64,000 bases of DNA from NCBI RefSeq assembly GCF_041886205.1, contig NZ_CP169029.1; one strand, 5' to 3'. Position numbers and translations under genes: made by a program. Within the stretch, counting starts at the first letter, position 1, and each line of letters begins with the position of its first letter. This document shows, piece after piece, positions 29,015 through 47,370 of the stretch. Under the pieces are notes generated by a model. It was not told the origin of the DNA, did no database searches, and worked only from the letters and a program-made list of their open reading frames with translations. Origin of the DNA: Escherichia coli. GTDB lineage: Bacteria > Pseudomonadota > Gammaproteobacteria > Enterobacterales > Enterobacteriaceae.

Positions 29015-31015
29015 TCATCCTTGTTGCTGAAGCATGGGGAATAATTGTTCGCAAAGCAAAACACCGTTATTCATTGCTTCTACCCGAGCCTCGCTTTCTG
29101 TATTACGAAATTGTGCCAATACATGTGCCAGCCGATAAAAACCCATCGCGGTGAGGTCATTCGCCAGCAACTCTGCCTGACCAATAGCACTCTGTTCCTG
29201 ATAGCGCCAGCCGTTATGGAGCAGTTGAATAAGTAACGCCTGGCAGCGCATCAGCAACTGAGGAGCGGTAGACGGCACAGGCAGAACGCTGGCAGAAGGT
29301 AGCGGTGCCACAGGCGTAGTTTCTGCGTCCAGCGCCCAGGCGCGGGTTTTTGTCATCATCACCCGTGGTTCCAGTGTCAATTGCCCCTCAACAAAACTGA
29401 CAAAGCCAGAAACCAGACTCACGGGGTCCTCTGTTTGTTGTAACAGAGCTGCCATGCGTTCAACAGCAAAGGGCGAACAGGTAGAGGCTGGTAGGGATAA
29501 TGTCAGCACGTTATCTTCACCTTCGCCGCTGATTACCTGCGCATCCAGCGTTTGGCGGCTGCTATCCCAACCGAGTGAAATACACTCAGCGACCGGCAGA
29601 ATAAATAAGTTATCGACCTGATTAAGAGGCCGTATGCAGGCGGGGGGACGCTGGCGTAAATATTCCCGCAAAGCCACAATGCCCGGCTGGCGTAACGGCG
29701 CGCTCAACATTTGCCAGGCATCAGGCGACAGCGGCACAACGCTGCTTAAGCGGTTGCGGGTAGCTAACAGCAGCTCGCCATCGGCACTGCGTTTTGCTGC
29801 TTGTGAAACAATTTGCCCGCCCGCTAGTGCGCCAGCCTGAAAACTAAACAGCCGACGCGTAGCTGCCGGTGAGTTTTCCTGTTCACTTCGCGGCCAACTG
29901 CGCGAAAGGTGCAAAATACTGCCGGTGTCGGGATCGGTAAACCAGATGCGTAAACCATAATGCTCAATATCCTGCCAGCAACGCATACCTAAAGACACCA
30001 GCCGCAGATGATCAAGCTTTGCTTCTCCGGCAATGCCAGAGCCAACGACCGTGCGCCACGGCACAGGAGGAACTTCACCAATACTGTCGCGCCGGGCCAT
30101 CTCTTGTGCGCAATTTAATCGACTGTTTAATGCCGCAAGCTGACGTAAGCATTCTCCGGCATGATAGTGGCTGGCGCGGGCGTGGAAGGCATCAACGCTT
30201 GCCCGTAGCTGTCGTAGTGATTCACTCACCCATCGCCAGTTGCAGCGTTCCGCCGCCTGCTGCGCGCGACTAAAAGCGGCCTCGTAGTGAATAAGCGGCT
30301 GGCTGATGCCGCCCAGCCATAATGCCTGGCTTAATTGCTGAACATATTGACGACACGCGTTACCCTCGTCGTTGGCAAACGGATCGTTAGATGATGTGAC
30401 GTGTTCGCTGCGCATCTGCCAGATTAAATGAGTCAATTCCGCTTGCTGCGCTTTTGCCTGGACAAAGGCCTGTACTGCCAGTACGACATGTTCGCAAAGT
30501 GTGCCTTCAATACAATCACAACGGGCGAAACGAATGCTGCTACGGGAATAAAAACGCACATCGCTCATCGGTAAGCGGGCAGAGGGAATTTCGCCCGGCG
30601 TACAGAACAACTCAATGGTGATGCCTTTAGCGACCAGCGCCTGTGCGCGTTTGCGGGTAGCATCGGGAAGGGTAGCCAGTTCTTCCAGCCAGATTGCCGG
30701 ATCCCACTCTTCTTCTTTTTCCGTAGACTGAGTGGTGGCACAAAGTCGTTGATAACTTAACACCAGCATCACGCGATGACGGCACATACCGTTGGCCCCG
30801 CAACTGCACTGAGCCTCTTTCAGTGCCTGGCCGTTCGCCAGCTGGGTACGGACACCGTCACTGAAGGTGGCGATTAAAGCGTCGTTCTCATGGCTGATCT
30901 CCGGGACGTTGCCATTTTCCAGTTCCTTAAGACTGCGCTTAACAAAACCGGCATTGCTTAACGCCGTCAGGGCCTGCGGTGTCAGTTCTAATAATTCCGG
31001 ACGTAGTGAATTCAT
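29015..31015 (-). CDS. yehQ: SWIM zinc-finger protein YehQ (two SWIM motifs)
   Basis: The start MNSLRPELLEL at 31015 makes an ATGA overlap with the yehP stop. Two CxC-x5-CxH motifs: CSCGANGMCRH and CDCIEGTLCEH. Confidence 0.85.
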   Translation of the reverse strand: MNSLRPELLELTPQALTALSNAGFVKRSLKELENGNVPEISHENDALIATFSDGVRTQLANGQALKEAQCSCGANGMCRHRVMLVLSYQRLCATTQSTEKEEEWDPAIWLEELATLPDATRKRAQALVAKGITIELFCTPGEIPSARLPMSDVRFYSRSSIRFARCDCIEGTLCEHVVLAVQAFVQAKAQQAELTHLIWQMRSEHVTSSNDPFANDEGNACRQYVQQLSQALWLGGISQPLIHYEAAFSRAQQAAERCNWRWVSESLRQLRASVDAFHARASHYHAGECLRQLAALNSRLNCAQEMARRDSIGEVPPVPWRTVVGSGIAGEAKLDHLRLVSLGMRCWQDIEHYGLRIWFTDPDTGSILHLSRSWPRSEQENSPAATRRLFSFQAGALAGGQIVSQAAKRSADGELLLATRNRLSSVVPLSPDAWQMLSAPLRQPGIVALREYLRQRPPACIRPLNQVDNLFILPVAECISLGWDSSRQTLDAQVISGEGEDNVLTLSLPASTCSPFAVERMAALLQQTEDPVSLVSGFVSFVEGQLTLEPRVMMTKTRAWALDAETTPVAPLPSASVLPVPSTAPQLLMRCQALLIQLLHNGWRYQEQSAIGQAELLANDLTAMGFYRLAHVLAQFRNTESEARVEAMNNGVLLCEQLFPMLQQQG

Positions 31016-32148
31016 GACTGAAGATTCTCCGCAAGCCATGATGCCAGCTCGCCCGGCGTCATGGCGGCTATTTGTGCGCCGACATTAACCAGCGCCTGGG
31101 CCGTATCGTGGTCATAGCAAGGTGTTGCGTTGCTATCGAGCGCCGCCAGTCCCAGCACTTTGATGCCGCTCTGGACACACTTTTTCACCTGATGCGTGAG
31201 TAATGATGATGAACCCCCTTCGTAAAAATCGCTCACGAGGATAATGACGCTTTTTGCTGGTTGTTCAATAAGTTGCCGACCATATTCCACGGCACTGGCG
31301 ATATTGGTTCCGCCGCCTAATTGCACTTTCATTAATAACTCTACCGGATCGGCAACGTCTGCCGTGAGATCGACGACGCTGGTGTCAAACGCCACCAGAT
31401 GGGTACGAATACCGGGTAACTGCCATAAACAGGCCGCCATCACCGCTGAGTGGATCACCGAGTCCACCATTGATCCGCTTTGATCAACCAGTAAGACCAG
31501 TTGCCATTGTTCACTGTGGCGCTTAATACGGCTGTTAAAGCGGGGGGATTCGATATACAACTTGCCGTGTTGCGGGTGCCAGTGTTGCAGGTTGGCGCGC
31601 AGAGTACTTTTGAAATCAAAGTTTCGCGCCAGTAGAATAAATGAGCGGCGACGGCGATCGCGGACACCAGAAAAAGCCTGACGAACCTCCTTTGCCAGTT
31701 GTGCCATAATTTCTTCCACAACCTGGCGCACTATCCGGCGGGCGGCAGCCAGTACTTCGGGATTCATCAGATGTTTGGTGTGCAAAACGGCGCGTAGCAG
31801 GCTTTCAGAAGGCTGCATACGTTCCAGCACGTCGAGATTCGTCACCACATCTTCAATGCCATAGCGCAGTACGGCATCGCTTTCCAGCCGCTCAATCACC
31901 TGTTGCGGAAACAGCGTGTGAATACTGTTGATCCACTCAGGAGTGGTGAGATTTGAGCCACCTAATCCACCGGAGCGTTCACCACGCTGGAGCCGTTCAG
32001 GATCGCGCCCATACAGCCACTCCAGCGCGTGGTCTATCTGCCGGGCGTTGTCATCCAGCCCACAAAGGGTCGTTTCTGCCGCTTCGCCAAGAATTAATCG
32101 CCAGCGTTGTAGCTCACGGGTGGTCAGAAGATCGTTCAGTTCAGACAT
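31012..32148 (-). CDS. yehP: von Willebrand factor A domain protein YehP
   Basis: Internal start MSELNDLLTTRELQRW gives 378 aa. MIDAS motif DQSGS (LLVDQSGSMVD), plus the later GGGT and SDFYEG elements. 8-nt overlap with the yehM stop. Confidence 0.87.
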   Translation of the reverse strand: MSELNDLLTTRELQRWRLILGEAAETTLCGLDDNARQIDHALEWLYGRDPERLQRGERSGGLGGSNLTTPEWINSIHTLFPQQVIERLESDAVLRYGIEDVVTNLDVLERMQPSESLLRAVLHTKHLMNPEVLAAARRIVRQVVEEIMAQLAKEVRQAFSGVRDRRRRSFILLARNFDFKSTLRANLQHWHPQHGKLYIESPRFNSRIKRHSEQWQLVLLVDQSGSMVDSVIHSAVMAACLWQLPGIRTHLVAFDTSVVDLTADVADPVELLMKVQLGGGTNIASAVEYGRQLIEQPAKSVIILVSDFYEGGSSSLLTHQVKKCVQSGIKVLGLAALDSNATPCYDHDTAQALVNVGAQIAAMTPGELASWLAENLQS

Positions 32149-34420
32149 GGAAAACTCCCCAGTGTTGCAGCGATGCCAGTGCCTGCTGTTCGAGTTGTTG
32201 ATGATGTGCAATGGCTTGCGGTGGACAATGCAACGGTATTTGCAGCGCCGAAACGGGAAGTTGCGCCAGTTGATAATGCTCAAGCACCTGATGCGCCAGC
32301 GTCCCGCGTTCTCGTGGTGGTAGCCAGGCCATCGCCGCGCGTAAATCGGGCAGGGCATTGATAAAATCGGCATCACTCAGTTGATTTAAATGACTGCTGA
32401 AACCGGCGATAAATGCCGGCTGACAAGCCAGTTGATGACGGGCTAATGCCAGCAAACCGTGCAGCGCCTCGCCGGATTGGGCCGGGGATAACTGCGTCAG
32501 CATTGTCAGCGCCGCTTCGGCACTAGCGTTGGGATGTTCCAGACGCATCAGTGCGCCAAGAGTCGCGCCGCGATCCAGCGCCGGGGCATGAATCGCCTGA
32601 CTGCGGCGCTCCAGTAAGGCTACCGCCGCAGAAAGCGAAACGCCGGATAAGTTAACGCCGCTATGTAGATCGCGCAGGATATGGCAAAGCGCTTGCCAGC
32701 TATGCAGGTGAGCGTGAAACTCCTTTTCATCCGGTCTGCCGTTGGATTCACACAGCCACAGCGTGCGATCGATAGCCGCGCATAACGTCGTTTGTAATAT
32801 CTGCGCGCCTTGCATACCGCTAATTTCATCCAGCCGCCATAAGGCATATAGCACTTCCAGCGCCTGGCCCATTTCGGCAAATTGATTTTCCTGGGCGATT
32901 AATAATGTGAGTTGTTCCAGTAATTGCTCACTAAAGCTCGCCAGGCCCGCTAACGCCGCCTGGCTAAGACATGCGGTAATGCTGCCGATTCCACCCGCGT
33001 CCAGCATATCGGCTTCTAATTTATTGCGTGCGGCTTCCTGGAGTGTTGCACCAAAGCAGGCGGCCTCAATCAATGCCGCATGCTGGCTAAGCGGGCGGGT
33101 TAATTTCCAGCGTTCTTCACCGTTGCCTGCAAGTGTCAGTGTACTTCCCTGCTGGCGTAAAATCCCTGGGATCTCCAGTATTGCCAGCCGATGTAACACC
33201 TGACTTTGCGCTAGTCCATTGGGGTTAAAGCGATTTAAGGTAAGCTGCGCCGGAAGAGAGATTCCGGTACGTTCCAGTTCGCAGGTGACATCTTTTGGCA
33301 GAGGCGGTTGTGGCGTGGAGGGGGCAAGTTTACCGAATCCGTCACCCGCTAATGTGTCTATCAACGTTAGCAGAATCGGATCGGTATCGGGATGAATAAC
33401 TCCGCGATAGCTCCACGGCAACGGCGCGTTCAAGGCTTCTTTAATCAGCGAGCCTGCTATGGCATCCAGCCAGTCAGTGCGTAACGGTAGTGTATGACCG
33501 CGCAACTGTGCCAGTGCCATTGCATGCAGATGTGCGGCAGCCATATCAGCGGTAGAAGCGGGCAATTTGTGCTGGCGCAAACGGGTGAGAACCGTTTTTA
33601 GCAGTTGTTCTCCCGCCTGCTGTAAGCCCCACTGCCAGCACCAGTTTTGCCAGACCGGAGCAGGCATTCCGGAAAGGTATCCTGCCAGCACATCAAGGCG
33701 CTTTTCGCTGTATGGCGTGAGATAACAACCTGTAACGGCATCATCCTGTGAGGGCAATTCTGGCTTGTTAATTTCCTGCGGGCATTCGCGCCACATTTTT
33801 GCCAGTGCCGGAGCGTGCCAGCCACCGCAGACGACTAACACGTCGCCATTGTTTTGCAGCATCGCCCATCCAATCCAGCGGGCCATAAAGGCTTCGCGCT
33901 GACGATTGAGAGCATCTCCGGGGGAATCGCCCCGCAGTTGGGCAAAATAGTGCGCCAGCGCAGAGGGTAATGCAGTTTGCTGGCTTTCATCTTCGAATAA
34001 GTGATCCCACAGGGTGTCGCTGTTATCCATGCGGGTGGCACGCAGCAGCAAGGCCTGGCTTTCCTCTTGCGTATCAGGCGAATCGTCCTCTTCTTCACTC
34101 TGCGCCCAGCAAGGCAAATCGATGAAGTAAGTTTGTGCCTGAATACGACGTGCGGCTTGTAGCGCCTGCCACTCCGGCGAAAATTCAGCAAATGGCGTCC
34201 AGGCACCGCGCCCGGGGGCCGTACCGTCCTGATACTGGCAATAACTGTAAATAGCTACCGGAAGCTGGTGGGCTAAAAACAGTTCGTCTACCCGGTCATT
34301 AAAATCAGCCGGGCCTTCAATCAACACGTATCGTGGCCGCTGGCTTTCGATTAACGATTTCACCAGCCGGGCGCTGGCCGGGCTATGATGCCGGATGCCG
34401 ACAATTAACGGCTCGCTCAT
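32141..34420 (-). CDS. yehM: Large uncharacterised protein YehM (759 aa)
   Basis: Internal start MSEPLIVGIRHHSPASARL gives 759 aa and lies 10 nt after the yehL stop. I can see no recognisable catalytic motif. The C-terminal half is mostly helical and Leu/Ala-rich. Confidence 0.85.
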   Translation of the reverse strand: MSEPLIVGIRHHSPASARLVKSLIESQRPRYVLIEGPADFNDRVDELFLAHQLPVAIYSYCQYQDGTAPGRGAWTPFAEFSPEWQALQAARRIQAQTYFIDLPCWAQSEEEDDSPDTQEESQALLLRATRMDNSDTLWDHLFEDESQQTALPSALAHYFAQLRGDSPGDALNRQREAFMARWIGWAMLQNNGDVLVVCGGWHAPALAKMWRECPQEINKPELPSQDDAVTGCYLTPYSEKRLDVLAGYLSGMPAPVWQNWCWQWGLQQAGEQLLKTVLTRLRQHKLPASTADMAAAHLHAMALAQLRGHTLPLRTDWLDAIAGSLIKEALNAPLPWSYRGVIHPDTDPILLTLIDTLAGDGFGKLAPSTPQPPLPKDVTCELERTGISLPAQLTLNRFNPNGLAQSQVLHRLAILEIPGILRQQGSTLTLAGNGEERWKLTRPLSQHAALIEAACFGATLQEAARNKLEADMLDAGGIGSITACLSQAALAGLASFSEQLLEQLTLLIAQENQFAEMGQALEVLYALWRLDEISGMQGAQILQTTLCAAIDRTLWLCESNGRPDEKEFHAHLHSWQALCHILRDLHSGVNLSGVSLSAAVALLERRSQAIHAPALDRGATLGALMRLEHPNASAEAALTMLTQLSPAQSGEALHGLLALARHQLACQPAFIAGFSSHLNQLSDADFINALPDLRAAMAWLPPRERGTLAHQVLEHYQLAQLPVSALQIPLHCPPQAIAHHQQLEQQALASLQHWGVFHV

Positions 34421-35519: not shown

Positions 35520-35630
35520 ATATTCATCCCTGAAATGTATTAATGAAATAAACGATATTTTACGCGCAATAAATGTTTGGCGCATTAGTTGTTTGAGCGA
35601 AAAATATCTGGAAAGCAGATCACAGTAAAT

Positions 35631-35660
35631 AAAAAAACCTGCTGGTGAGGCAGGTTCTTT
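35631..35660 (-). terminator. Strong intrinsic terminator between yehK and yehL
   Basis: On the minus strand: aacctgc-ctcacca-gcaggtt followed by ttttttt. An A-run on the other side makes it potentially bidirectional. Confidence 0.7.
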
Positions 35661-35825
35661 TATTTACTATTTTCAGGCCTAACACCACAGCCTGTGCAAC
35701 ATCGTGTTCCAACGAACGAATTATAACCACGGCTGGACCCCGTTGCAATTAAGATAATGAGATTTATAATCCAGACCGTTGGGACGTTGCGCCGGATCGG
35801 ACCAATTTGAATTATTTAGAGTATA

Positions 35826-36143
35826 TTATTCTATTTCTTGGTTGAATATATTCTGTAGTTCACGATTAAAAATTGCTATTACAGTTTCAGGTGATTCACC
35901 TCGTAATTTCCGCTCATCAATACACTCATCTCTTATATAAATCAACGCATCATTTATTAGCGGGTCAGCATCTTCTCGATCACGTTGATGAAATGTTGGA
36001 TGTAGCCGGAATCGCTCCAGTCGATAGACGGAACCTGTAAATAATTCAGAGCATTTATGGATCTCAAGTCTGAAGGAAAACGGATCTTCAGGTACAGGGA
36101 CCTCATAATCGTAAATAGCAACCAGCTCTTTTTGCACGATCAT
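35826..36143 (-). CDS. yehK: Small uncharacterised protein YehK (105 aa)
   Basis: 105-aa ORF, visibly AT-rich compared with its neighbours. No signal peptide or TM segment. Acidic. Confidence 0.75.
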   Translation of the reverse strand: MIVQKELVAIYDYEVPVPEDPFSFRLEIHKCSELFTGSVYRLERFRLHPTFHQRDREDADPLINDALIYIRDECIDERKLRGESPETVIAIFNRELQNIFNQEIE

Positions 36144-36171
36144 CGCTTTCCCGTTGGTAAGTCGTGTTGAA

Positions 36172-36197
36172 AACGGGCAGTCGCATCACTGCCCGTT
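36172..36197 (-). terminator. Hairpin (possible attenuator or weak terminator) between yehI and yehK
   Basis: aacgggcagt-(6 nt)-actgcccgtt is a 10-bp stem. On the minus strand it runs into ttttc only. Confidence 0.4.
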
Positions 36198-36202: not shown

Positions 36203-39200
36203 TTAATGGAAAATGACGTCGGGTGCGCTTAACGCCTCACTCAAATCAAACACATCAAGTGCGGCAAAAGTGACGGATTTATTGTCACGGTACACCCGAA
36301 GAGAACGGAAGCTCATCAGCGCTTTGCTATCAGCACTGTAGTAGTTAAAACCGGGTGAAAACTTAAGGACCAGCCGGTACTCACCTAAGTCATAGACAAA
36401 TGCGTCCTCATAGCCTGACTCCCAGCCTTTGTATCGCATTCCCATAAGCTGCCCAACGGTAGCGGATTTACCTTCCCAGCGAGTCAGGCTGTTACTGGTT
36501 GACTCGTCAGGTGTGAGCAGCACCGTGCGGCGCGACAACTGGCGAAAAGGCGGCATAATTTCGTAATCGGCAAAAAGCTGTGCAAATTCACTGCGCATTT
36601 CTGCTGTCATTTCTAACGGGTGGGCAATGCCAATCAGAGCGTCCGCAGGCAGGTCAATGGGCTCATCTTGTGCATTGCAGAATTCCCCCTCTGCGGCCAC
36701 ACGAAAGGTGTTGAGTAAACGACGTGGTTCATTTGCCGGATAAACCCCCCATATTAATCGCTGGGTAACCAGGCGGGTAAAGGGATGATTAACAAAAAGA
36801 GAATGAAAATCTGCCAGCGACCAGCGTCGGGTGGTGCGTAGGGCAGTTTCAAGACGCGGGAGCAGGTTTTTGCTCACCTGAGTGGCATCTTTTTTTAGCC
36901 CTTTTAGTCGGGCCAGTGCCTCGGGCGCTTTCAGTTGATCGTCATCGGCGCGCAACCGGGGAACACTTTTCTGGCGAACGTTTTGTTGATCGTAGATAAC
37001 CGGGTTGAGGTTTTCATCGAAGCGAACGGTAAACTGCCGGGGACCAAAATCAAAAATCAACGCCTGCGGATCATCAAGACCCAGTGTTGGGACTAATCTG
37101 TCCGCTAACTCTTCCTGGCTTAGCCCGCGATTTTCTGCGACCACCTGAAGAAATTCCGCTGCGTTTTCACGTAATGAAGAGGATTTCGCCCGTTGTGATA
37201 CATGATGCAGCTGTATCAGCGCCATATCATTATTCATCAGGGTGAGTATATTCAGACCACTGACAGCACGGGCAGATTTGCCTTCTTGTGGCCAAGCGAG
37301 GATCTGTGTTGTTAGATCCCGTGCCGTGCTTTCGTCACCAAAGAGACTTAACGCCAGAAATGCCCAGTTGTCTTTTGCGGGGGCACCAGCTTGTTGCCAT
37401 GCGGTGAAGAGATCCCAGGCAAAAGCTGCCAGCGTTTGCGGCTGGCAGAACGTTTTCAGTTGTTCCAGCCCGCTATAAAAACGTCCCCCTTGGGTAAAGC
37501 GCAGCATTTCGCCAATAATTTCCAGAGCGTCATCGGTAACAGGTTGATTATTAGTGATAAGGCGCGGCCTGGACCACATTTGCGGATGCCAGAAATCAGG
37601 GGCTTTTGGAATGCGTGCCGGGTAAATCTCTATTGGACTCTGTTTAAGTAATTGTTCCAGGGCAGGCCATACATCAGCGCGATCCCAGCGGTTTGCCACG
37701 GTTTGTAGTAATACGCCATGTCCCTGTTCGTAAAGTAAACGCAGGGCAAGTAATGCAGCTTCGCTATTATCGCTGGATTTAGTGAAGACAAGAGGGATAA
37801 GTGCAGTAGCCGTATGTTCCGGCCATTGTAAAATCCACTGGCGAGCCAGATCACGCTGCGCCGCGAAACGTCGCCAGACGCGGGCAACAGGCAGCGCCAG
37901 TTCTGTTGCGCCGAAATGAATCAGCAGCGGAAATATCTCTTGTGGATGTCGGGCAAAGGCGGTGTTTAATCCAGGCAAAGCATCGGTAGCCAGCACACTT
38001 AACAGATATTCCACCCCAGTGTAATGAAAATCAGCATCGACAATTTGTTGCCAGCACGATACCGCCATTTCGCGCGGCATCTGCGCGATAAGGTACAGAT
38101 TCCAAATCCCCCAACGCTTTTCATTACCATAGTAAAATTCGTGCTGAAAAGTTCGCCACCCTTCCATCAACGCAATGCAATCTTGTGCCAGTAATGCTTT
38201 GGTGGCTTCTTCACGATACTGTTTAGATTTGGCCTGATGCGCGTGATAAGTACGCAATAGTCCTATTGATGTGTATTCTTGCAGTTGCTGAGCATCAAAG
38301 GCATCCAACTGTCCATTAAGAAGATGCTTATTAAATTCCAGGCTATGAACGTCAAAACCTAATTCCCGCAAGAAGGTATCCGCCCCTCTCTTAGCAATAC
38401 GTTCGTCAAAAGACATGGCGCTAAAATGGTCAATTGCAGTTTGCTGTTCCGGCGTCCAGTGTTTATTCGGCGACCTGTACGTTTGCGGTGCAAGCGTAAG
38501 ATCAGGCAGCGAAAAGTGAGGTATGGAAGTCTTTTTCTTCCTCCCACGCCATGGTGGTGAAACGAGGATTTCAGGCATTTGGCTGTTATCGGTACTATCA
38601 ATAACCGGTTTGGGCGGTGCCAATAAATAACTATTCAGTACTGCCCGGGCTTGAGTACTTAACCACTGCATCACCTCTTCTGCCAGTTGTGGCTGCGATG
38701 CCATCAGCGTTTGTAACAGCGTACGCCAGTATTCATCTCGAGCTTTTTGCTGGGCAGGCAGCTTTTTGTCTTCGATGATTGGATAACCAGGGCGGGCTGG
38801 TGGTTCTTTTAACGCCAACAGTTCTGCCAGTGCCGCGAGCGTCGCGTGGGGGAAGTTTTTACTGTATTTAGCCACACGTTGCAGGCTGGGTTTGTTTTTA
38901 TCAGCCACCAGTAGCAAGGTGCGGATGACCTGCGGATGGTTAATTTGTACCAACAGACTGCCGCAATCTTCTTTATGGGCATACATCGCGAGGCGCGGAA
39001 TGGCTGCCAGTCCTTGTTCGCGCAAAAGGGCGGCGCAGGCCGCGTAGCCGAAGTGGTTTTCATGCGACATGTAGCTGGCTTCGCGATCGCTAAATATATC
39101 CTGACTCCAGTAGTGATCGAGTTTCCTCACCGCTGTGGGGTCATTAGCAACAACTTTTAGCCACTCCTTAGAATGATAATGAGTCCGTGGGCATTCAAGG

Positions 39201-39859: not shown

Positions 39860-42800
39860 TTATTCAAACAGGGCTTCAATATCGTTAATTAGCTCGCTGG
39901 CGGTGATGGCATCGAGTACGGAGAACTGCGCTTCCTGTGTTGAATTACTCCCCCAGCCATAGCTTTCCGCTTTGCCTTCCCATAACCACAGCTTGCTTAA
40001 GAGCTGCTCAGCGCTAAGTTCGGCTGGTGACATACCCACCGCAAAACCTTCGTCGATTTCCATGATTAACGACCAGCGACCCAAAGGTTTGATCATCCAT
40101 CCGATCCAGCCTCCATCCTGTGGTTCGCCCTTTATCCAGCCTTTATTCGCCAGCCCCATGACCCGACCACTCGGGCATTTTCTGCCTGCCCAGCGGGTCA
40201 GTTCACTGGCATTGCGCTCGGCTTCTGTCAGGGCGTAGCTGTTACGGTCGAGCTGGCGGAACGGTGGTAGCAGTTCGTAGTCGGCAAAAAGCTGACCAAA
40301 GGCGGCAGCATCCGTTGGTGATATTTCCAGAACGTGAGGAGTGCCGATAGAGATATCGCCTTCCGGCAGGGTGAAAAGATCATCGTCAGCGGTGCTGTAG
40401 CTGTTATCTTCTGCTACGCGAAAGCAAGCCAGTAGCTGGTTTTCGGCGCTATAAACGCCCCAAATCAGACGGCGGGTTAAGTGACGAACCAGCGGATGCT
40501 CAACCAGGAAGAGCTGGAAGTTTTCCAGCGACCAGCGGCGGCGCAGGCACATGGCGGATTCCAGCCTTGCTACCTGCTGGGCGGCGACGGTACGCGCATC
40601 TTTTTTCAGCAGTTTGTAGCGGTTAACAGCATCGTTCGCCTGTGATTCATCATCGCTTTTGTTTGGTTTGGGCAGGTCTTTCAGACGGCTGCCGGAAGCG
40701 TCACGCACAAACGGTTTTAAGGTTTCATCAAAGCTGACGGTGAACTGGCGTGGGCCGAAATCCAGCAGCAACGAACCGTTATCATCCAGACCGAGATCTG
40801 GTGCTAACCGATCTTCAAGCTCCGCCACCGTGAGTTCGCGGCTCTCGGCAATATCGGCAATTTTCTCTTTTGCCCGCTCCTGTAAAGCTTTGAATTTCAG
40901 TTTCTGAGCAATGCCGTTAAGCTGCATCAGAGCAATATCACTACCGATAGCGGCGAGGATATCAAGCCCGACGGTGGCGCGTTTATGCTGGGATTCGCCA
41001 GGCCAGGCGCGGATTAATGGCGTCAGTTTGCGGGCGGTGTCATCGTTACCGAGAACGCCTAACGCAGTGAACGCCCAACTCTCTTTCGACGGCGCGCCAG
41101 CGGTCTGCCAGGCGGTAAACAGATCCCAGGCAAATTCAGCCAGTGAGTCGGCGGTACAGGCGTCTTTCACCTGTAATATTCCCGGATACAGAACCTCTTC
41201 CTGAGGGAAGCGGAGCATTTCACCGAGGTGGAGGAGGGCTCTATCTGGCAGTGATTGGGCGTTTGCTTTTAATACCGGGCGCGTCCAGAGCGATGGTTGA
41301 TAAAAGGCCGGAAGAGTGGGGATTTTTGTCGGGTGATTATCTAAGGGATCGAGCGCAAGCAGAGCGTTCACCGCATCGGTTACTTCCGGCTGGTTATAAC
41401 GTCGGGCGATTTCTTGCAGTAATGGCTGATGACCGTTTTCGGTAAGCATACGCAAGGCAGCGCGGGCGTTATCCTGTGCTTCACCGGCTTTGCCGAGCGC
41501 CGCAGGCAGCAGGCCGGTAAGGGCATGTTCCGGGTATTTCAACAGCCAGCTACGGGCGTTTTCGCGTAGCGTTTTGAGTTTGTTGAAGGCACGGGCAATC
41601 AGTGGCGCTAATTCGATAGCCGCAAAATATTGTGCTACAGGCAGCGCTTCTTGCGGATAGCGAGATGCTGAGTGGATAAAACCTGTTAAACCAGCAAGTC
41701 GAAGATGCAACATTACTTGTGTTGCACCTGTATGTGGTTCTTTACTAAGGATGTTCCACATCTCGATAGCTTTATTAATGGGTAAAACATGGAGTGAAGA
41801 AAGATTCCATTCGCCCTGATAAGGGGAGTTATAGGACTTAAAAGCATCAATCAGCGCTGAATAATCTTCACGCTGCAAGGCATCCAGTGCTATTTCTGGA
41901 ACATCAATATAGCCTCTATGTTTGTTCCAATCCCAGCGGTTGAATCCCAGGGAGGTCAGAAAAGCTTTTTCTCCCTCAGCTTGCTGATGAGGTTGCCAGT
42001 TATGCTGCACTTGCAGTGTTTTGCTTTTTGTTTCATTTATTGTACAGAAGGATTCTAGGGATAATGGTGCTAAATCCAGCACCGAAATCGTCGATTTTTT
42101 CTTTTTAGCCAGCCAGGGCGGTGAGACTAATACGGCAGGCAGCATATCAGCGTTCGCATAAACTGAAGGTTGTGTCAGTTGTTGCTGGCATGACTTAAGA
42201 ACGGTAACTGCCGGGGCAGATAGCCAGGAGATTACCCGTTCTGCTAATGTTGGTTGTGAGATAAGCATTGTCATTAGCATCATGCGCCAGCGCTTTTCAT
42301 CTTTTTTTGCCAGAAGTTCTGCTAATGCCGCCAGCGCTGCATGTGGAAAGCGAACGAAAGCCTTTGTCATGCGATCGTGGCAACGCTTTCCCTGCTCGCT
42401 TGCATGGATAAGTAGTGTAAGTGCCTGCGGGTGGTTGATATGCATCAACACTTCACCACATGTGTCACCAGCAGCGTAAGGAGCAAAACGGGCCAGCGCA
42501 GCGACACCTTGCTCCTTGAGTATCGTTGCGCACCAGATTTTACCTCCGTAATAATCATCAAATACCTGCCCAGGCTGTCCTGGATAGTATTTTCCCAGTT
42601 CTGCCAATACCTGCTCGTCAGCGGCCGTCAGTTTTAGCCATTCCAGCGCATATAACCCTTTTTGTCCGCAAAGATGTCTGGCAATCTCATGAGCTATTTC
42701 TGGTTTTTCCGGCAACAATAGTGCAACCAGCGGCTGGTGCCAGGTGGGCATGTTTCCGAGAGCGGCAATCAGTTTGTCGGCGCAGCGCTGCCATACATCG

Positions 42801-43618
42801 TCATTTGCAAGTGAGAGATGCTTACGCAGGCGCATTTCAACCGAAGCGAAGCGTAACAGATAGCCAGGCTGCCTGTTATCCGGGGTAACCGTAATGAGAT
42901 GGGCATCATAATCCCAGTCGAAGCGGATGAATTGCAATGCAATGACAACCTCAGTGGCATATTCCAGACCACCTTCCTGGACAATTTGATCCATTAACTC
43001 TTCATGATCGTTACGATTGAAGCCTTGTTCCAGCGCAACCAGTACCGCCAGTACCATCGGAGGTAGCGTGGTGCTAATTGGCGAGTCGATAAGGCCTACT
43101 GCTTGTGTAATTGCCTGCTGCCAGTCGAGTGAACAGGTACTGTAATCGAAGGTGAGCACCTTTTTAAAACGCCGGTGAGTATTCGCGGCAACGGTGCGTA
43201 GCAGGGTTAATTCATCCTCCTGCTGCACCGGATCGCCAGGCCAGCGTCGATGACTGAGTGTGGTTGGCGCAATCTCTGTCGGTAACATGATTTGGGCACC
43301 GTCTGCCAGCCAGGGGAGGAGGTCACCAGCAAATGCTGGTTTGTCTTGTGGCAAAGGGGTAATTTCAGGGCATTCAATAACCTGGCCGGGTGCAAATGTC
43401 GCTGTCATCACGGATACTTCTTCTACGTAGCCCTTTTTTGTTTTCTCCGCAATCAGCTTCAGCTCCGCTTTTTCCGCCGCCGCAGCATCTGCAAAGCTTT
43501 TTACCTGACTTTGCCCGTTACTGCCGACTTTACCCCAGTTAATATGCAGCTCGTTTCCCTGCTGCTCCACCGCCCAGAATTTATGTGATTTTTCGTCCTG
43601 ATAAATATAGGTTTTCAT
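39860..43618 (-). CDS. Intact MolR-family protein (1252 aa): N-terminal WGR-like domain plus a long helical/DUF4132-type body
   Basis: Uninterrupted ORF. The N-terminus MKTYIYQDEKSHKFWAVEQQGNELHINWGKVGSNGQSQVKSF fits the WGR-domain pattern (FW..., WG+xG..GQ). The C-terminal roughly 500 aa are about 75-80% identical to the neighbouring split paralogue. Confidence 0.85.
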   Translation of the reverse strand: MKTYIYQDEKSHKFWAVEQQGNELHINWGKVGSNGQSQVKSFADAAAAEKAELKLIAEKTKKGYVEEVSVMTATFAPGQVIECPEITPLPQDKPAFAGDLLPWLADGAQIMLPTEIAPTTLSHRRWPGDPVQQEDELTLLRTVAANTHRRFKKVLTFDYSTCSLDWQQAITQAVGLIDSPISTTLPPMVLAVLVALEQGFNRNDHEELMDQIVQEGGLEYATEVVIALQFIRFDWDYDAHLITVTPDNRQPGYLLRFASVEMRLRKHLSLANDDVWQRCADKLIAALGNMPTWHQPLVALLLPEKPEIAHEIARHLCGQKGLYALEWLKLTAADEQVLAELGKYYPGQPGQVFDDYYGGKIWCATILKEQGVAALARFAPYAAGDTCGEVLMHINHPQALTLLIHASEQGKRCHDRMTKAFVRFPHAALAALAELLAKKDEKRWRMMLMTMLISQPTLAERVISWLSAPAVTVLKSCQQQLTQPSVYANADMLPAVLVSPPWLAKKKKSTISVLDLAPLSLESFCTINETKSKTLQVQHNWQPHQQAEGEKAFLTSLGFNRWDWNKHRGYIDVPEIALDALQREDYSALIDAFKSYNSPYQGEWNLSSLHVLPINKAIEMWNILSKEPHTGATQVMLHLRLAGLTGFIHSASRYPQEALPVAQYFAAIELAPLIARAFNKLKTLRENARSWLLKYPEHALTGLLPAALGKAGEAQDNARAALRMLTENGHQPLLQEIARRYNQPEVTDAVNALLALDPLDNHPTKIPTLPAFYQPSLWTRPVLKANAQSLPDRALLHLGEMLRFPQEEVLYPGILQVKDACTADSLAEFAWDLFTAWQTAGAPSKESWAFTALGVLGNDDTARKLTPLIRAWPGESQHKRATVGLDILAAIGSDIALMQLNGIAQKLKFKALQERAKEKIADIAESRELTVAELEDRLAPDLGLDDNGSLLLDFGPRQFTVSFDETLKPFVRDASGSRLKDLPKPNKSDDESQANDAVNRYKLLKKDARTVAAQQVARLESAMCLRRRWSLENFQLFLVEHPLVRHLTRRLIWGVYSAENQLLACFRVAEDNSYSTADDDLFTLPEGDISIGTPHVLEISPTDAAAFGQLFADYELLPPFRQLDRNSYALTEAERNASELTRWAGRKCPSGRVMGLANKGWIKGEPQDGGWIGWMIKPLGRWSLIMEIDEGFAVGMSPAELSAEQLLSKLWLWEGKAESYGWGSNSTQEAQFSVLDAITASELINDIEALFE

Positions 43619-43630: not shown

Positions 43631-45820
43631 TTAATCAAACAGTGATTCAATATCGTTAATCAGCTCGCTGGCGGTGATGTCGTCGAGCACGGAGAAGGGA
43701 TAAACCGATTTGCGCGGCGTCAGTTTGCACAACTGAATGTGCTCAATTTTTTGGCTATCGCTGATTTCGGTGACGGGCAATCCAACGCAGAAGCCTGGTG
43801 TCACACTCAGTTCGACGTAGCCATCATCCACAGATTTATAAAATGAGTAATAGCCGCCACCATCCAGCACATCGCCCCGTTGCCAGCCTTTATTCATCAG
43901 CCCGGCGACGCGCCCACTCGCTGCCTGGCGACCAGCCCAGCGCTGCAAATCGCTGCTGCTTTTTTCTGTCTCAGAGAGCTGAGACCAGGGGCGATCAAGT
44001 TGACTGAATGGTGGCAATAGTTCGTAGTCAGAGAACAGTTGTGCAAATTCAGCAGCCTGCGGGGCCGGGATTTCCAGTACATGCGGGATACCGATACTGC
44101 CCTGCGCAAGGGTTAACGGGTTATCCTGACCGTCGCTAAAACTGCCATCCTCCGCCACGCGGAAACAGGAAATAAGCTGATTATCAGCGTCATAAATGCC
44201 CCACATCAGACGTTGGGTGATATGACGAACCAGGGGATGCTCAACCAGAAACAGGCGGAACTGTTCTGCAGTCCAGCGGCGACGCTGACACATGGCGGCT
44301 TCCAGACGCGAAATCTGTTGTGCAGCTACCGTGCGGACATCTTTTTTCAACAACTTGTAGCGATTTACCGCTTCCTCAGCCAGCGTTTCATCATCGCTTT
44401 TGTTCGGTTTGGGCAGATCTTTCAGACGGTTGCCGGAAGCTTCGCGCACAAACGGTTTTAAGGATTCATCAAAGCTGACGGTGAACAGGCGTGGGCCGAA
44501 ATCCAGCAGTAGTGAGCCGTTATCATCCAGACCGAGATCGGGGGCTAACCGGTCTTCCATCTCTGCGACGGTGAGCTGGCGGCTTTCGGCAATCTGGGCG
44601 ATTTTAGTTCTAGCCTGATCCTGCAAGGCTTTAAATTTTAGCTTTTGCGCAATACCGTTAAGTTGCATCAGGGCGATATCGCTGCCGATAGCAGCAAGAA
44701 TATCCAGCCCGACAGTGGCGCGTTTATGCTGAGATTCCCCCGGCCATGCGCGGATGAGCGGGGTGAGTTTGCGGGCGGTGTCATCGTTACCCAGAATCCC
44801 CAGTGCGGTAAATGCCCAGTTATCTTTGGCTGACCCGCTTGCAATCTCCCAGCTCAAGAAGAGATCCCAGGCGAAATCGGCAAGAGACTGCGGGGTACAG
44901 GCCTCGATTACCTGTGTTATCCCCGGGTAAAGGGTGGCTTCGCGGGGAAAAGAGAGCATGGTGCACAGTTGCAGGATAGCTGAATCCGGAAGTGCCTTGC
45001 CGTTACTGCGCAGAAGCGGGCGGTGCCATACTTCAGGGGTACACCAGGCGGGGAGTTTAGCGATTTTCTGCGGAAAATTATCGAGGGGGTCGCTGTTAAG
45101 AACATCTAACAAACCCGTAAGCACTTCTGCCTGATTATAGCGGTGGGCAATTTCTTCCATTAACGGCTGATGCCCATGATGAGCCAGATAGCGAATTGCC
45201 GTAGCGGCGTCTTCACGCTCACTACCTGCTTTTCCCAGCACGGAAGGCAGCAGGCCCGTAATGGCATGTTCCGGATAGGTTAACAACCAACGTTCAGCAA
45301 CATCACGTACAGATTTAAGCTGACGAAAGGCGCGAGCCATTAAGGGGGCTACTTCGGTTGCGCCAAAACGTGCCGCTAAAGGAATGGCTTCCTGAGGTAC
45401 GACTAAGGCGCGACGCAGCAAGCCGGGCAATGTCGGAAGACCGTAATATTCCACTACTTCACATGCGTTAATCAGATGTAGGTGAGTCAGTGCGTTCCAT
45501 ATTTTCAGTGCTTTATTTTCTGATAACTGAAGCAATACCGACACATTGACAAGGATATGACTTGCCCACCGAGGTTTATCCCAGATCTTTAATAAAGCTT
45601 CGTAATTGTCCTGCTCGAAAAAATCAATGGCAGCCTGAGGTATACCCCAACCAAGCTCTTCGCAATGGAAGTTCAACAAATCCAGGATATCTTTCGCTGA
45701 TGGGGATGGCGCAGATGGCTCAGTCAGATTTTTTGTTGCGGGGATAGATTCAGGGGGGGAAGAGGTAATACCCGGAGAGTGAGGTTGATACCAGCAATCT
45801 TTTTCTTTTTTTCCAACCAT
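43631..45820 (-). pseudogene. C-terminal portion (729-codon ORF) of a third MolR-family gene, split by a frameshift
   Basis: Homologous to residues of about 530-1252 of the intact paralogue. Overlaps the N-terminal ORF by 97 nt in another frame. Adding one C to the C7 run at 45753-45759 fuses both ORFs into 1246 codons. Confidence 0.75.
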
Positions 45821-47370
45821 GAAGGGGCGATCAATATACTGGGTAATTCATTCTTATGAGCAATTTTTTCGATGGACATAAGCTGAGGAAAATAACTAAA
45901 TAAAATTTGTTGCTGTTTTTCGTCAAGCCAGGGAAGCGTTTTATGTAAGGCTTGCGCATTACCCAAGATGATGCGCTGCAGTAAACGATAATAGTGAGAG
46001 TTATTTGTGTAATTTAAGGCTTTTGTTAATGCATAAAGTGCAGCTTCAGGATGTAAATTTGTTGCGTGTTCCACTTCACTGATACATTCTTCTTTTATTA
46101 ATATATTAATGGCGTCAGGATGATTAACTTGTGTAATTAGATTTTTAACTGAATAACTATCCTTTATCCATGGCTGAAGAAGTGGAAGAGCTTTTACCCC
46201 TCGTTCACGCAGTAATGTCGCAGTGCATTTTTCCGCCGTCTGCCAGTCGTTATAGCGCTTAAGTTGGTTAAGATTCATCAATTCATTGAGTGCCTGCGGA
46301 TCTGTGGCAACGATATCCAACCATTCCATTTCTGGGTAATTAGCACATTGCACTAAGTCAAAGACAATTTGATTAGCAATTTCAGGTTGTTCAGGCAAAA
46401 GAAAACCTATTAAAGGGCGTTTACGTGGAGACAGGGAAGGCAACGCTTGAGTAAGCTTTTTCATGCACCGTTGCCATGTTTTTTCATCAATACGCGAGAG
46501 ATGATTTCGCAAGTGAAAATCTACAGTGCTGAAGCCGAATTCAAAACGTTGTTCTGATATTGTGTTACTTAGAATAAGCGTTGGTACGCAATTTTTTGTA
46601 AAAAAATTGTATCCCATGCGAACATACAAAAGGCATTTATCTAAAGCTTCACAATTTCCCGGATCTTGATTTTGATCATCTGATATCTGAATTTGCTGTA
46701 ATAGCAAGACTAATTCGGTCGCGTATTCTACCCCATGCTGTTGCGCCAGATAATCAAAAAGATCATTAGCGCTATCGCTATCTTGCATAAGAAACTTGAC
46801 CAGCAAAAAGAATGCATTGGAGAAAATCGAACCGTCTATATTTTTCTGCTGAACGCGCATGATTGCTTCATCCCGGCCTCGTTGCCATTCCGGGCGGCAG
46901 TCACTCACATCAAAATGCTGTAATTGTGCAAGAAAATAGTATTCCTCATATTTGTTTTCCCATAAGAGTGACCATAACGAGATATCTTTAGCAAACGTCC
47001 TGACACTGTCGGCTGGGAATTTCCTACTGCTAAATACTCTCTTTGTTTCGAGAATGATTGGTTCAAGGTCCGCAATCCACGGTGGTGTGTCGACATCAGT
47101 AATAATTGGATGTTGTTCGCTATCATCAGCTGTGGTGGGAACAGTTATCAGCATGTTTATATCGTCAGTCGATTTTACATACCCCTTCTTCACCTTCTCC
47201 GCAATCAACTTCAGCTCCGCTTTTTCCGCCGTTGCAGCATCCGCAAAACTTTTTACCTGGCTTTGCCCTTGGGTGCCAACTTTTCCCCAACTGATATGCA
47301 ACTCGTTTCCCTGTTGCTCCACCGCCCAGAATTTATGTGATTTTTCGTCCTGATAGATAAAGCGTCTCAT
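45724..47370 (-). pseudogene. N-terminal portion (548-codon ORF) of the split MolR-family gene: WGR-like domain plus an AT-rich divergent region
   Basis: N-terminus MRRFIYQDEKSHKFWAVEQQGNELHISWGKVGTQGQSQVKSF. It ends just after PSWLEKKKKIAGINLTL, which is homologous to PPWLAKKKKSTISVLDL in the intact copy. Confidence 0.75.

What the first reader, a model, noticed from the sequence alone, without database searches (positions are those of the whole stretch)
29015..47370. Candidate undescribed multi-component system: MolR/YehI-family array + YehK, next to a MoxR-AAA+/YehM/vWA/double-SWIM operon
About 18 kb on one strand encodes only proteins with no established function, and the parts fit together suspiciously well. 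Upstream unit: three tandem 1215-1252-codon paralogues, two with an N-terminal WGR-like module. WGR is a nucleic-acid- or nucleotide-associated domain known from PARPs and polyphosphate-linked proteins. These are joined by 9-12-nt spacers carrying SD sequences and are followed by the small AT-rich yehK. Downstream unit: separated by a strong intrinsic terminator (35631-35660), it contains yehL (Walker A GEPGTAKS, MoxR/AAA_5-like), yehM (759 aa, no motif I can place), yehP (vWA with MIDAS DQSGS) and yehQ (two CxC-x5-CxH SWIM fingers). Its start/stop overlaps of 8 and 4 nt imply stoichiometric co-translation. MoxR-AAA+ plus vWA pairs are the core of chelatases/maturases and, in comparative-genomic work, of NTP-dependent conflict (defence-like) systems. 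Duplicated, diversified giant sensor-like proteins are also typical of conflict systems. That the two units act together, and any function proposed for them, is my inference. The locus sits in a core-genome context (metG to btsSR), not an obvious mobile island, which argues for caution.
Basis: partly seen in the sequence, partly recalled or inferred. Interest (0 to 1): 0.85.

Follow-up and report, generated by a model that had tools for sequence, protein, structure and literature searches.

The report
Conserved MolR-array plus YehLMPQ ATPase machine
This E. coli stretch encodes one conserved but uncharacterised machine: a MoxR-type ATPase with three partner proteins, plus one to four giant, fast-diversifying "MolR-family" proteins that always travel with it; its function is still unknown.

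Summary
Three corrections apply. The first paralogue carries a 1-nt frameshift in this window. The "strong terminator" is the 3' end of an orphan Orz antitoxin sRNA gene. YehM is DUF5682, with a TraB/ChaN/EreA-like N-terminal domain.

In 80 species-level genomes of gamma-, beta- and delta-Proteobacteria, and in Acidobacteriota and metagenome contigs, yehL-yehM-yehP-yehQ sits directly next to 1-4 WGR/DUF4132 genes, usually as a single operon. yehK and orz are Escherichia-only inserts.

Within E. coli, yehLMPQ is near-core and conserved. The MolR genes vary in copy number and carry two hypervariable cassettes. Their promoter has the published molR LexA (SOS) box.

No PADLOC model matches, no paper describes the system, and its flanks are not defence islands.

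Best reading: an ATP-driven MoxR/vWA remodelling complex that uses interchangeable MolR proteins as sensor or adaptor subunits. Its biological role is unproven: invader surveillance, DNA-damage handling or cofactor insertion. I rate it a new variant of a known kind, of moderate to high interest.

The parts
47380..47395 (-). LexA (SOS) box-like CTG-N10-CAG (CTGGATAAAATTACAG), 10-25 nt upstream of the paralogue A start codon
   Evidence: Read directly from the sequence. The 20-mer AACTGGATAAAATTACAGGG is identical upstream of K-12 yehF/molR. molR is listed among LexA-regulated genes with a known SOS box (PMC6590174). A box at the same position occurs in Klebsiella grimontii and Intestinirhabdus. 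The bare motif is common in the window (41 copies), so its position and identity to K-12 carry the weight.
43631..47370 (-). MolR-family paralogue A (WGR + alpha-solenoid + DUF4132). It is frameshifted here into ORFs 45724-47370 (548 aa) and 43631-45820 (729 aa).
   Evidence: Its variable half occurs in only 10 of 5426 complete E. coli genomes. GC is 0.385-0.43 across 45400-47200.
39860..43618 (-). MolR-family paralogue B (1252 aa; WGR 7-67, DUF4132 976-1161)
   Evidence: AlphaFold2 model of residues 75-1252: pLDDT 86.7. It shows a HEAT/karyopherin-like solenoid plus a C-terminal alpha/beta region with no solved relative. Hypervariable cassettes lie at aa 61-360 and 481-660 among Escherichia alleles.
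36203..39850 (-). MolR-family paralogue C (YehI type, 1215 aa, no WGR, DUF4132 959-1143)
   Evidence: It is 39% identical to paralogue B over 1190 aa. Only 48 of 5426 genomes cover at least 80% of its N-terminal half.
36172..36197 (.). 10-bp GC-rich hairpin between paralogue C and yehK. The T-run is on the plus strand only.
   Evidence: Function not tested.
35826..36143 (-). yehK, a 105-aa lineage-specific gene that is not part of the conserved system
   Evidence: No Pfam, NCBIfam or PADLOC hit. Among the 80 related loci it occurs only in Escherichia. It has 40 representatives among 1.84 billion proteins.
35631..35748 (-). Orphan orz gene. Promoter-like site at 35748-35720, Orz sRNA at 35706-35631 including its terminator at 35660-35631. 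No zor toxin ORF is present.
   Evidence: K-12 has the same spacer. Strain SC476 carries two complete zorO/zorP-orz modules at this site. Orz-only loci are reported in more than 30% of E. coli genomes (PMC11264685).
34431..35519 (-). yehL, MoxR-type AAA+ ATPase (AAA_5), Walker A GEPGTAKS
   Evidence: The closest solved sequences are midasin AAA modules. Walker A is kept in 78 of 78 orthologues.
32141..34420 (-). yehM, DUF5682: N-terminal TraB/ChaN/EreA-like domain plus C-terminal helical repeats
31012..32148 (-). yehP, VWA_CoxE protein with MIDAS motif DQSGS
   Evidence: The MIDAS motif is kept in 77 of 77 orthologues.
29015..31015 (-). yehQ, 666 aa, two SWIM zinc fingers and an uncharacterised C-terminal region
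   Evidence: Both fingers are kept in 74 of 75 orthologues. No solved relative.
28920..28936 (-). Terminator-like hairpin plus T-run downstream of yehQ
   Evidence: Consensus match only.

Best explanation
The MolR-family genes and yehLMPQ form one conserved functional module.

**Proposed roles of the parts (all inferred)**
- YehL probably forms a MoxR-type AAA+ ring, by analogy with other MoxR proteins.
- YehP is its vWA partner. Its MIDAS site would grip an acidic residue of a client protein.
- YehM would be a scaffold. Its N-terminal TraB/TIKI/ChaN/EreA-like pocket has invariant His, Glu and Asp residues and is the only candidate catalytic or ligand-binding output.
- YehQ would be a double-SWIM zinc-finger adaptor.
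- The MolR proteins would be interchangeable sensor or adaptor subunits. Each has a WGR domain, a long HEAT-like solenoid with two hypervariable cassettes, and a strongly conserved block (about aa 841-1020, running into DUF4132). I propose that this block docks onto the common machinery.

**Proposed action (inferred)**
When a MolR protein binds its ligand, ATP hydrolysis by YehL, transmitted through YehP, remodels the complex or its target.

**Regulation**
In Enterobacteriaceae the MolR array carries a LexA box and so should be SOS-inducible. In K-12, yehL and yehM are upregulated when H-NS/StpA are deleted, so the yehLMPQ unit appears to be H-NS-silenced.

**Role**
I think the most likely role is surveillance of foreign or damaged nucleoprotein, that is, a conflict-type system.

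**What is shown and what is not**
Shown: gene linkage, domain content, motif conservation and the pattern of diversification. Inferred: all physical interactions, the order of events and the biological role.
For: **Linkage**
- All informative loci among 80 species-level genomes have yehL-M-P-Q contiguous, with 1-3 DUF4132 genes directly adjacent.
- The same operon occurs in a Thermoanaerobaculia contig and in three metagenome contigs with 1-4 paralogues.
- No other gene family is conserved across genera around it.

**Constraint on the parts**
- Walker A 78/78, Walker B-like 76/78, MIDAS 77/77, two SWIM fingers 74/75, YehM GG[YWF]HA 79/79.
- The YehM model is confident and matches TraB, ChaN, HopBA1 and EreC. 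Its His/Glu/Asp set is invariant.

**Sensor-like evolution of the MolR proteins**
- Between paralogues A and B, the WGR domain and the aa 841-1020 block are 83-88% identical although 34-47% of the identical codons differ synonymously. This points to purifying selection. The solenoid is only 22-37% identical.
- Within Escherichia, variation is confined to aa 61-360 and 481-660.
- The variable halves of A, B and C are covered at 80% or more in 8, 689 and 48 of 5426 genomes. yehLMPQ reaches that in 5202.

**Regulation**
- SOS box. H-NS control of yehL and yehM (PMC3686432).
- Deinococcus WGR and DUF4132 genes belong to the DdrO DNA-damage regulon (PMC8533742).

**General principle**
vWA-MoxR pairs capture and remodel a client protein (PMC7159879).
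Against: - There is no experimental datum on any of these proteins, and no interaction was tested.
- No PADLOC family matches.
- The 96 nearest flanking ORFs of 32 genus-level loci are mostly housekeeping genes. The few PADLOC hits look like DnaG, sigma-70, IscS-type, FtsK or RtcR cross-matches. The classic defence-island signal is therefore absent.
- The module is near-core in E. coli, which is unusual for a defence system.
- No recognisable toxic effector is present.
- The LexA box is found only in Escherichia, Klebsiella and Intestinirhabdus, not in Erwinia, Serratia or Betaproteobacteria.
- One locus (L058, Desulfuromonadaceae) has yehLMPQ with no adjacent DUF4132 gene in the DNA available.
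- The match of YehM's conserved residues to catalytic residues of EreC or TIKI rests on my own reading, not on a superposition.
Confidence: 0.42

Rival explanations
1. It is a chelatase-like or maturase-like housekeeping chaperone. The giant MolR proteins would hold a cofactor or apo-enzyme, and YehL/YehP would drive metal or cofactor insertion. Models are CobN-CobS-CobT, BchH-BchI-BchD and CoxD-CoxE. The historic "molybdate metabolism regulator" name fits this reading.
For: - YehP is a strong VWA_CoxE match (238 bits) and has a weak cobaltochelatase hit.
- YehL is AAA_5, like other MoxR maturases, with weak GvpN and MadB hits.
- The layout of a roughly 1250-aa subunit plus an AAA protein plus a vWA protein mirrors class I chelatases (my own knowledge).
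- Flanking genes are housekeeping.
Against: - No CobN/BchH-type domain, no cox genes and no molybdoenzyme genes are nearby.
- Intraspecific hypervariable cassettes and copy-number variation are not expected for a metabolic chelatase.
- WGR domains and SOS control do not fit.
- K-12 carries yehH as a pseudogene, so the 1990 molR phenotype may not map to this gene.
Confidence: 0.13
2. It is an SOS-induced DNA-damage machine rather than an anti-invader system. WGR domains would find DNA breaks or adducts. The AAA+/vWA motor would extract trapped proteins. YehM's TraB/TIKI-like domain would cut them. This would be functionally analogous to p97 working with SPRTN or Wss1 in DNA-protein crosslink repair.
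For: - molR is in the LexA regulon, and the box is present here.
- Deinococcus WGR and DUF4132 genes are in the DdrO regulon.
- The MolR WGR profile matches the PARP3 WGR domain (E 2.4e-4).
- YehM has a hydrolase-superfamily fold with invariant His/Glu residues.
- YehL's closest solved relatives are midasin modules.
Against: - The LexA box is restricted to one enterobacterial sub-lineage.
- Hypervariable solenoid cassettes are hard to explain for a repair factor.
- Distribution among Enterobacteriaceae is patchy: no Salmonella, Citrobacter or Enterobacter appears among the best 80 loci.
- No nuclease or helicase partner is conserved.
Confidence: 0.15
3. In E. coli the two units are no longer one system. 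The MolR array is a decaying or independently used SOS gene set, yehLMPQ is a separately silenced operon, and their adjacency is only inherited.
For: - Regulation is separate: LexA and BglJ-RcsB act on molR, while H-NS acts at yehL.
- yehK plus zor/orz modules are inserted between the units.
- Pseudogenes are seen: K-12 yehF/yehH and a yehQ that is shorter in K-12 (614 aa against 666 aa here), and the frameshift in this window.
Against: - yehLMPQ is kept at 95-99% identity in 5202 of 5426 genomes, and all functional motifs are intact.
- At least one intact MolR gene lies next to it in the E. coli records examined.
- The conserved MolR block is under purifying selection.
Confidence: 0.1

Closest known systems
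MoxR AAA+ / vWA chaperone pairs (RavA-ViaA, CbbQ-CbbO, NorQ-NorD, CoxD-CoxE); YehL is one of the seven named MoxR subfamilies
   Same: An AAA_5 ATPase is encoded beside a vWA protein with an intact MIDAS motif. YehL is already named as a MoxR subfamily of unknown role (PMC3893208).
   Different: Three further obligatory partners are present: DUF5682, a double-SWIM protein, and 1-4 giant WGR/DUF4132 proteins. No known client enzyme is encoded nearby.
MoxR-vWA ternary conflict systems (VMAP, iSTAND, FtsH and beta-propeller classes; Kaur et al. 2020, PMC7159879)
   Same: A MoxR-vWA core is combined with extra dedicated components and diversifying, repeat-rich proteins.
   Different: None of the four defining third components is present. 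The bpMoxR hit is below threshold (18.7 against 27 bits). No effector domain is fused to the vWA protein. The paper does not mention SWIM, WGR, YehL or TraB.
Class I chelatases (CobN-CobS-CobT, BchH-BchI-BchD)
   Same: A subunit of about 1250 aa, sometimes in several paralogues, is combined with an AAA+ motor and a vWA/MIDAS subunit (my own knowledge; weak hits).
   Different: The MolR proteins show no homology to CobN or BchH. YehM and YehQ have no counterpart.
Midasin/Rea1
   Same: It has dynein-related AAA modules, which are the closest solved sequences to YehL (E 1.7e-9), and a MIDAS domain that grips a client.
   Different: Midasin is a single giant eukaryotic polypeptide acting on pre-ribosomes. 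Here the parts are separate proteins in bacteria.
TraB/PrgY/TIKI/ChaN/EreA superfamily
   Different: There is no detectable sequence similarity. The domain is fused to a roughly 450-aa helical-repeat region. Its activity is unknown.
zor-orz type I toxin-antitoxin locus
   Same: The sRNA at 35631-35706 is a full-length OrzO-P match.
   Different: No zor toxin gene is present, so this is an orz-only haplotype. It is an insert, not part of the MolR-YehLMPQ system.

Membership tests
MoxR AAA+ family (YehL subfamily) | AAA_5-type ATPase domain with Walker A and Walker B | tested here: met
   PF07728, 119.7 bits. GEPGTAKS and FEEI are present and conserved in 78/78 and 76/78 orthologues.
MoxR AAA+ family (YehL subfamily) | A vWA/MIDAS partner gene in the same operon | tested here: met
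   yehP: VWA_CoxE, 238 bits, DQSGS motif. It is adjacent in all related loci.
MoxR AAA+ family (YehL subfamily) | Hexameric ring and ATPase activity stimulated by the vWA partner | not testable with these tools
   Needs biochemistry or complex modelling.
MoxR-vWA ternary conflict systems (Kaur et al. 2020) | Third component is VMAP, an inactive STAND, FtsH or a beta-propeller-fused vWA | tested here: not met
   Pfam finds none of these. bpMoxR scores 18.7 bits against a cut-off of 27.
MoxR-vWA ternary conflict systems (Kaur et al. 2020) | Variable effector domains fused to the vWA or third component | tested here: not met
   YehP is 378 aa with only VWA_CoxE. No effector family was found in the operon.
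Known anti-phage defence systems (PADLOC-DB 2.0.0) | Match to a defence-system protein model | tested here: not met
   No hit for eight of the nine ORFs. The only hit is a chance-level DpdF match for YehP (E 0.0068).
Known anti-phage defence systems (PADLOC-DB 2.0.0) | Location in defence islands | tested here: not met
   96 flanking ORFs from 32 loci gave few PADLOC hits, mostly housekeeping look-alikes. Pfam shows sigma factors, response regulators and tRNA synthetase.
Known anti-phage defence systems (PADLOC-DB 2.0.0) | Protection against phage or plasmid challenge | not testable with these tools
   Requires experiment.
CoxD/CoxE-type maturation system | vWA protein of the CoxE family | tested here: met
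   PF05762, full-length match, E 8.3e-71.
CoxD/CoxE-type maturation system | Linked client enzyme genes (CO dehydrogenase or another metalloenzyme) | tested here: not met
   No conserved neighbour beyond the five families.
LexA (SOS) regulon | SOS box at the promoter | tested here: met
   CTGGATAAAATTACAG at 47380-47395, identical to the K-12 molR upstream 20-mer. molR is listed with a known SOS box.
LexA (SOS) regulon | LexA-dependent induction in this strain | not testable with these tools
   Requires expression data.
TraB/TIKI/ChaN/EreA superfamily (YehM N-terminal domain) | Shared fold | tested here: met
TraB/TIKI/ChaN/EreA superfamily (YehM N-terminal domain) | Catalytic His/Glu residues in equivalent positions | tested here: inconclusive
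   H11, H12, E35 and H202 are invariant. No residue-level superposition was available.
OrzO-P antitoxin sRNA / zor-orz locus | Covariance-model match above the gathering score | tested here: met
   99.9 bits against 60, model positions 1-76 of 76.
OrzO-P antitoxin sRNA / zor-orz locus | Cognate 29-aa Zor toxin gene encoded divergently | tested here: not met
   No such ORF in 35520-36210. It is present in strain SC476 at the same site.

The most novel reading that the evidence does not exclude
The MolR-YehLMPQ module is a previously unrecognised class of bacterial immune or surveillance system. Germline-encoded, hypervariable HEAT-repeat receptors, each headed by a PARP-like WGR domain, would hand foreign or damaged nucleoprotein to a midasin-like AAA+/MIDAS motor that carries a TraB/TIKI-type hydrolase. 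It would be near-core in E. coli and SOS-armed.
Probability: 0.3. Interest if true: 0.85.

Novelty: new variant of a known kind. Interest (0 to 1): 0.62.

Why it matters
- About 18 kb of the best-studied bacterial genome, including a canonical SOS gene (molR) and one of only two E. coli MoxR ATPases (YehL), still has no function.
- The MolR genes and yehLMPQ form one conserved five-part module. It has a constant motor and interchangeable, diversifying giant subunits. This turns seven separate unknown genes into one testable system.
- It points to the parts to mutate: YehL K89, the YehP MIDAS site, YehM H11/E35/H202, and the MolR block at aa 841-1020.
- K-12 is a poor model because yehH is a pseudogene there and its yehQ is shorter (614 aa against 666 aa here).
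- If the role proves to be immunity or DNA-protein damage control, it would add a new architecture to the MoxR-vWA systems.

Tried and rejected
- **PADLOC on all nine ORFs:** nothing.
- **NCBIfam:** only sub-threshold GvpN, MadB, McrB and cobaltochelatase hits.
- **PHROGs:** full-length, near-identical hits for YehK, YehQ, YehM and paralogue B. I rejected these as evidence of phage origin. The families look like copies of these same E. coli chromosomal genes, and the locus is chromosomal in all genomes examined.
- **PDB sequence and profile searches:** nothing for YehM, YehP, YehQ or YehK. For MolR only the WGR domain matched.
- **Search for a further conserved neighbour, such as an effector, across 80 loci:** none beyond within-genus synteny.
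- **LexA box conservation:** only in Escherichia, Klebsiella and Intestinirhabdus. The bare CTG-N10-CAG motif is too common to count on its own.
- **Defence-island test on flanks:** negative.
- **Apparent YehL-YehM and YehM-YehP fusion proteins:** single-member, roughly 96%-identical E. coli sequences. I treated them as read-through artefacts.
- **Literature searches** for yehL/M/P/Q, DUF4132, DUF5682 and the YehL subfamily: no functional study.

Full report
**What is there**

The window is E. coli chromosome between metG and btsSR. All genes of the finding lie on the minus strand. In transcription order they are:

| Gene | Coordinates | Size |
|---|---|---|
| paralogue A | 43631-47370 | frameshifted (see below) |
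| paralogue B | 39860-43618 | 1252 aa |
| paralogue C | 36203-39850 | 1215 aa |
| yehK | 35826-36143 | 105 aa |
| yehL | 34431-35519 | 362 aa |
| yehM | 32141-34420 | 759 aa |
| yehP | 31012-32148 | 378 aa |
| yehQ | 29015-31015 | 666 aa |

It also places YehM in DUF5682. The Walker A motif, the MIDAS motif, the two CxCx5CxH fingers, the SD-bearing 12-nt and 9-nt spacers, and the 8-nt and 4-nt overlaps are all exactly as described.

**Three corrections to the observation**

1. *Paralogue A is frameshifted.* One G is missing beside a C7 run at about 45751, compared with the intact 3741-nt gene in strain 2017.06.05CC. The result is ORFs of 548 and 729 aa. I cannot say whether this is a real mutation or a sequencing error.
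2. *The "strong terminator" is part of an sRNA gene.* The hairpin at 35631-35660 is the 3' end of a full-length OrzO-P antitoxin sRNA (99.9 bits against a gathering score of 60). A promoter-like TTGCAA-17-TATAAT site lies upstream.
   - No zor toxin ORF is present.
   - K-12 has the same spacer.
   - Strain SC476 carries two complete zorO/zorP-orz modules at exactly this site.
   - Orz-only loci are already reported in over 30% of E. coli genomes (PMC11264685).
3. *yehK is a lineage-specific insert.* Among the 80 related loci it occurs only in Escherichia. Its family has just 40 representatives among 1.84 billion proteins, many of them fragments.

**Do the two units belong together?**

Yes. 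A scan of one genome per species with a YehM profile found 401 relatives, of which the best 80 loci were kept. They cover Enterobacterales, Lysobacterales, Moraxellaceae, Burkholderiales, Neisseriales and two deltaproteobacteria.
- In every locus with enough flanking DNA, yehL-yehM-yehP-yehQ are contiguous on one strand, with 1-3 DUF4132 genes directly adjacent.
- These usually lie immediately upstream, with the last one ending a few bases before yehL. In Burkholderia they lie downstream.
- The only informative exception is a Desulfuromonadaceae contig (L058).
- 80 of 99 long DUF4132 ORFs carry an N-terminal WGR domain.
- Distant MolR homologues from a Thermoanaerobaculia genome and from metagenomes sit in the same operon, with 1-4 tandem paralogues and overlapping stops and starts.
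- No other gene family is conserved around the module across genera.

The conserved unit is therefore MolR(1-4)-YehL-YehM-YehP-YehQ. E. coli is unusual in having yehK and zor/orz inserted into it.

**What the parts look like**

- *YehL.* Its closest solved sequences are the AAA modules of midasin.
- *YehM.* The model is confident (pLDDT 85.8, pTM 0.81).
  - R10, H11, H12, E35, E83, D101, R175, E176, G199, G200 and H202 are invariant down to a 26%-identical homologue.
  - This is what one expects of an active or ligand-binding pocket. Equating these residues with the His/Glu sites of EreC or TIKI is my inference.
- *Paralogue B.* Residues 75-1252 model well (pLDDT 86.7).
  - The model is a long HEAT/karyopherin-like solenoid followed by an alpha/beta region.
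  - Only the WGR domain has solved homologues: 2ra8 and the PARP3 WGR domain.
- *YehQ.* It has no solved relative.
- *Motif conservation.* Functional motifs are kept in essentially all orthologues, so the ATPase, MIDAS site and zinc fingers are under selection.

**How it evolves**

Within E. coli, yehLMPQ is near-core. 5202 of 5426 complete genomes cover at least 80% of it, mostly at 95-99% identity. Its divergence from K-12 (96.1%) equals that next to metG (95.8%).

The MolR genes behave differently.
- The variable halves of A, B and C are covered at 80% or more in only 8, 689 and 48 genomes.
- Only 5 genomes share the whole three-paralogue arrangement.
- K-12 has two copies, one of them broken (yehF plus the pseudogene yehH), and a shorter yehQ (614 aa against 666 aa here).
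- Among Escherichia alleles of paralogue B, identity falls to 33-67% in two cassettes (aa 61-360 and 481-660). WGR and everything from aa 661 onward stay roughly 85-100% identical.
- Between paralogues A and B, WGR and the block at aa 841-1020 are 83-88% identical, although 34-47% of the identical codons differ synonymously. This indicates purifying selection rather than recent gene conversion. The solenoid is only 22-37% identical.

This pattern of constant ends and hypervariable middle, with changing copy number, is typical of recognition subunits that serve a common machine.

Distribution in Enterobacteriaceae is patchy. No Salmonella, Citrobacter or Enterobacter appears among the best 80 loci.

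**Regulation**

- A CTG-N10-CAG box with an AT-rich spacer lies 10-25 nt upstream of paralogue A. It is identical to the K-12 sequence upstream of yehF/molR.
- molR is listed among LexA-regulated genes with a known SOS box (PMC6590174). BglJ-RcsB also activates its promoter (PMC3950696).
- A box at the same position occurs in Klebsiella grimontii and Intestinirhabdus, but not in more distant genera.
- yehL and yehM are derepressed in hns/stpA mutants, and H-NS binds the intergenic region (PMC3686432).
- In Deinococcus, a WGR gene and a DUF4132 gene are strongly induced on DdrO depletion (PMC8533742).

**What it most likely does**

All characterised MoxR-vWA pairs remodel a client protein that the vWA MIDAS site holds (PMC7159879; PMC3893208). 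I therefore read the module as follows:
- an ATP-driven remodelling complex of YehL and YehP;
- two dedicated partners: YehM as scaffold with a TraB/EreA-like pocket, and YehQ as a double-SWIM adaptor;
- MolR proteins as interchangeable sensor or adaptor subunits that dock through their conserved C-terminal block.

The layout parallels class I chelatases (a giant subunit, an AAA_5 motor and a vWA subunit) and a split midasin. These are analogies, not homology.

The biological role is not established.
- *For a conflict-type role:* the diversification, copy-number variation, pseudogenisation, patchy distribution and SOS control.
- *Against it:* no PADLOC match, no defence-island context, near-core status in E. 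coli, and no obvious toxic effector.

Rival readings are listed in the report: a chelatase-like maturase, an SOS DNA-damage or DNA-protein crosslink machine, and functional uncoupling of the two units in E. coli.

**Comparison with what is known, and novelty**

- YehL is a named but uncharacterised MoxR subfamily.
- The other proteins are Pfam DUFs.
- molR is a known SOS gene of unknown role.
- The orz-only locus is published.

None of the four MoxR-vWA ternary conflict classes fits, and no paper in the searched library treats these genes as a system.

New here:
- the demonstration that the module is conserved across phyla;
- the fold assignment for YehM;
- the constant-versus-hypervariable anatomy of the MolR proteins;
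- the separation of yehK and orz from the system.

I rate it a new variant of a known kind. Interest is moderate to high because it makes a long-standing blank in the E. coli genome directly testable.

Noticed in passing
window 35631-35748 (-): Orphan Orz antitoxin sRNA gene with its own promoter-like site and no zor toxin. The yehK-yehL spacer is the zor-orz locus, and strain SC476 carries two full modules there.
   Followed up: yes
window ~45751 (-): A single-base deletion beside a C7 homopolymer splits paralogue A into two ORFs. It could be a real pseudogene or a sequencing error.
   Followed up: partly
window 45400-47200: The N-terminal half of paralogue A has GC 0.385-0.43, against 0.51-0.57 for its neighbours. 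It is found in only 10 of 5426 complete E. coli genomes, which suggests acquisition from a lower-GC donor.
   Followed up: partly
window 31275-31290 (-): The published yehP +1 ribosomal frameshift cassette GTGGAGTATGGTCGGC (PMC2790909) reads GTGGAATATGGTCGGC here. The change weakens the SD-like GGAG.
   Followed up: no
window 36172-36197: A 10-bp GC-rich hairpin lies between paralogue C and yehK. Its T-run is on the plus strand, that is, antisense to the operon. Function unknown.
   Followed up: no
window 15158-15238 (+) and 59212-59308 (+): Rfam gathering-level matches outside the finding: a Peptidase-S11 RNA motif and a TPP riboswitch.
   Followed up: no
P0330 (protein): A 2094-aa protein contains 13 tandem YehK-like stretches, and two proteins of about 220 aa contain two each. 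None has a Pfam domain.
   Followed up: partly
L086 1-9861: In one metagenome contig the module lies directly downstream of RtcR, RtcB, RtcA and a Ro60-type vWA gene, which are RNA-repair genes. This may be coincidence.
   Followed up: no
PHROG families 36295, 29006, 30700, 33984, 20839: These phage-protein families are full-length copies of chromosomal E. coli yehK, yehQ, yehM and molR-type genes. They are probably prophage-boundary overcalls in the source data.
   Followed up: partly
L058 (Desulfuromonadaceae MAG): yehLMPQ occurs with no DUF4132 gene within the available 2.6 kb upstream and 6.7 kb downstream. This is the only informative exception to the linkage.
   Followed up: no
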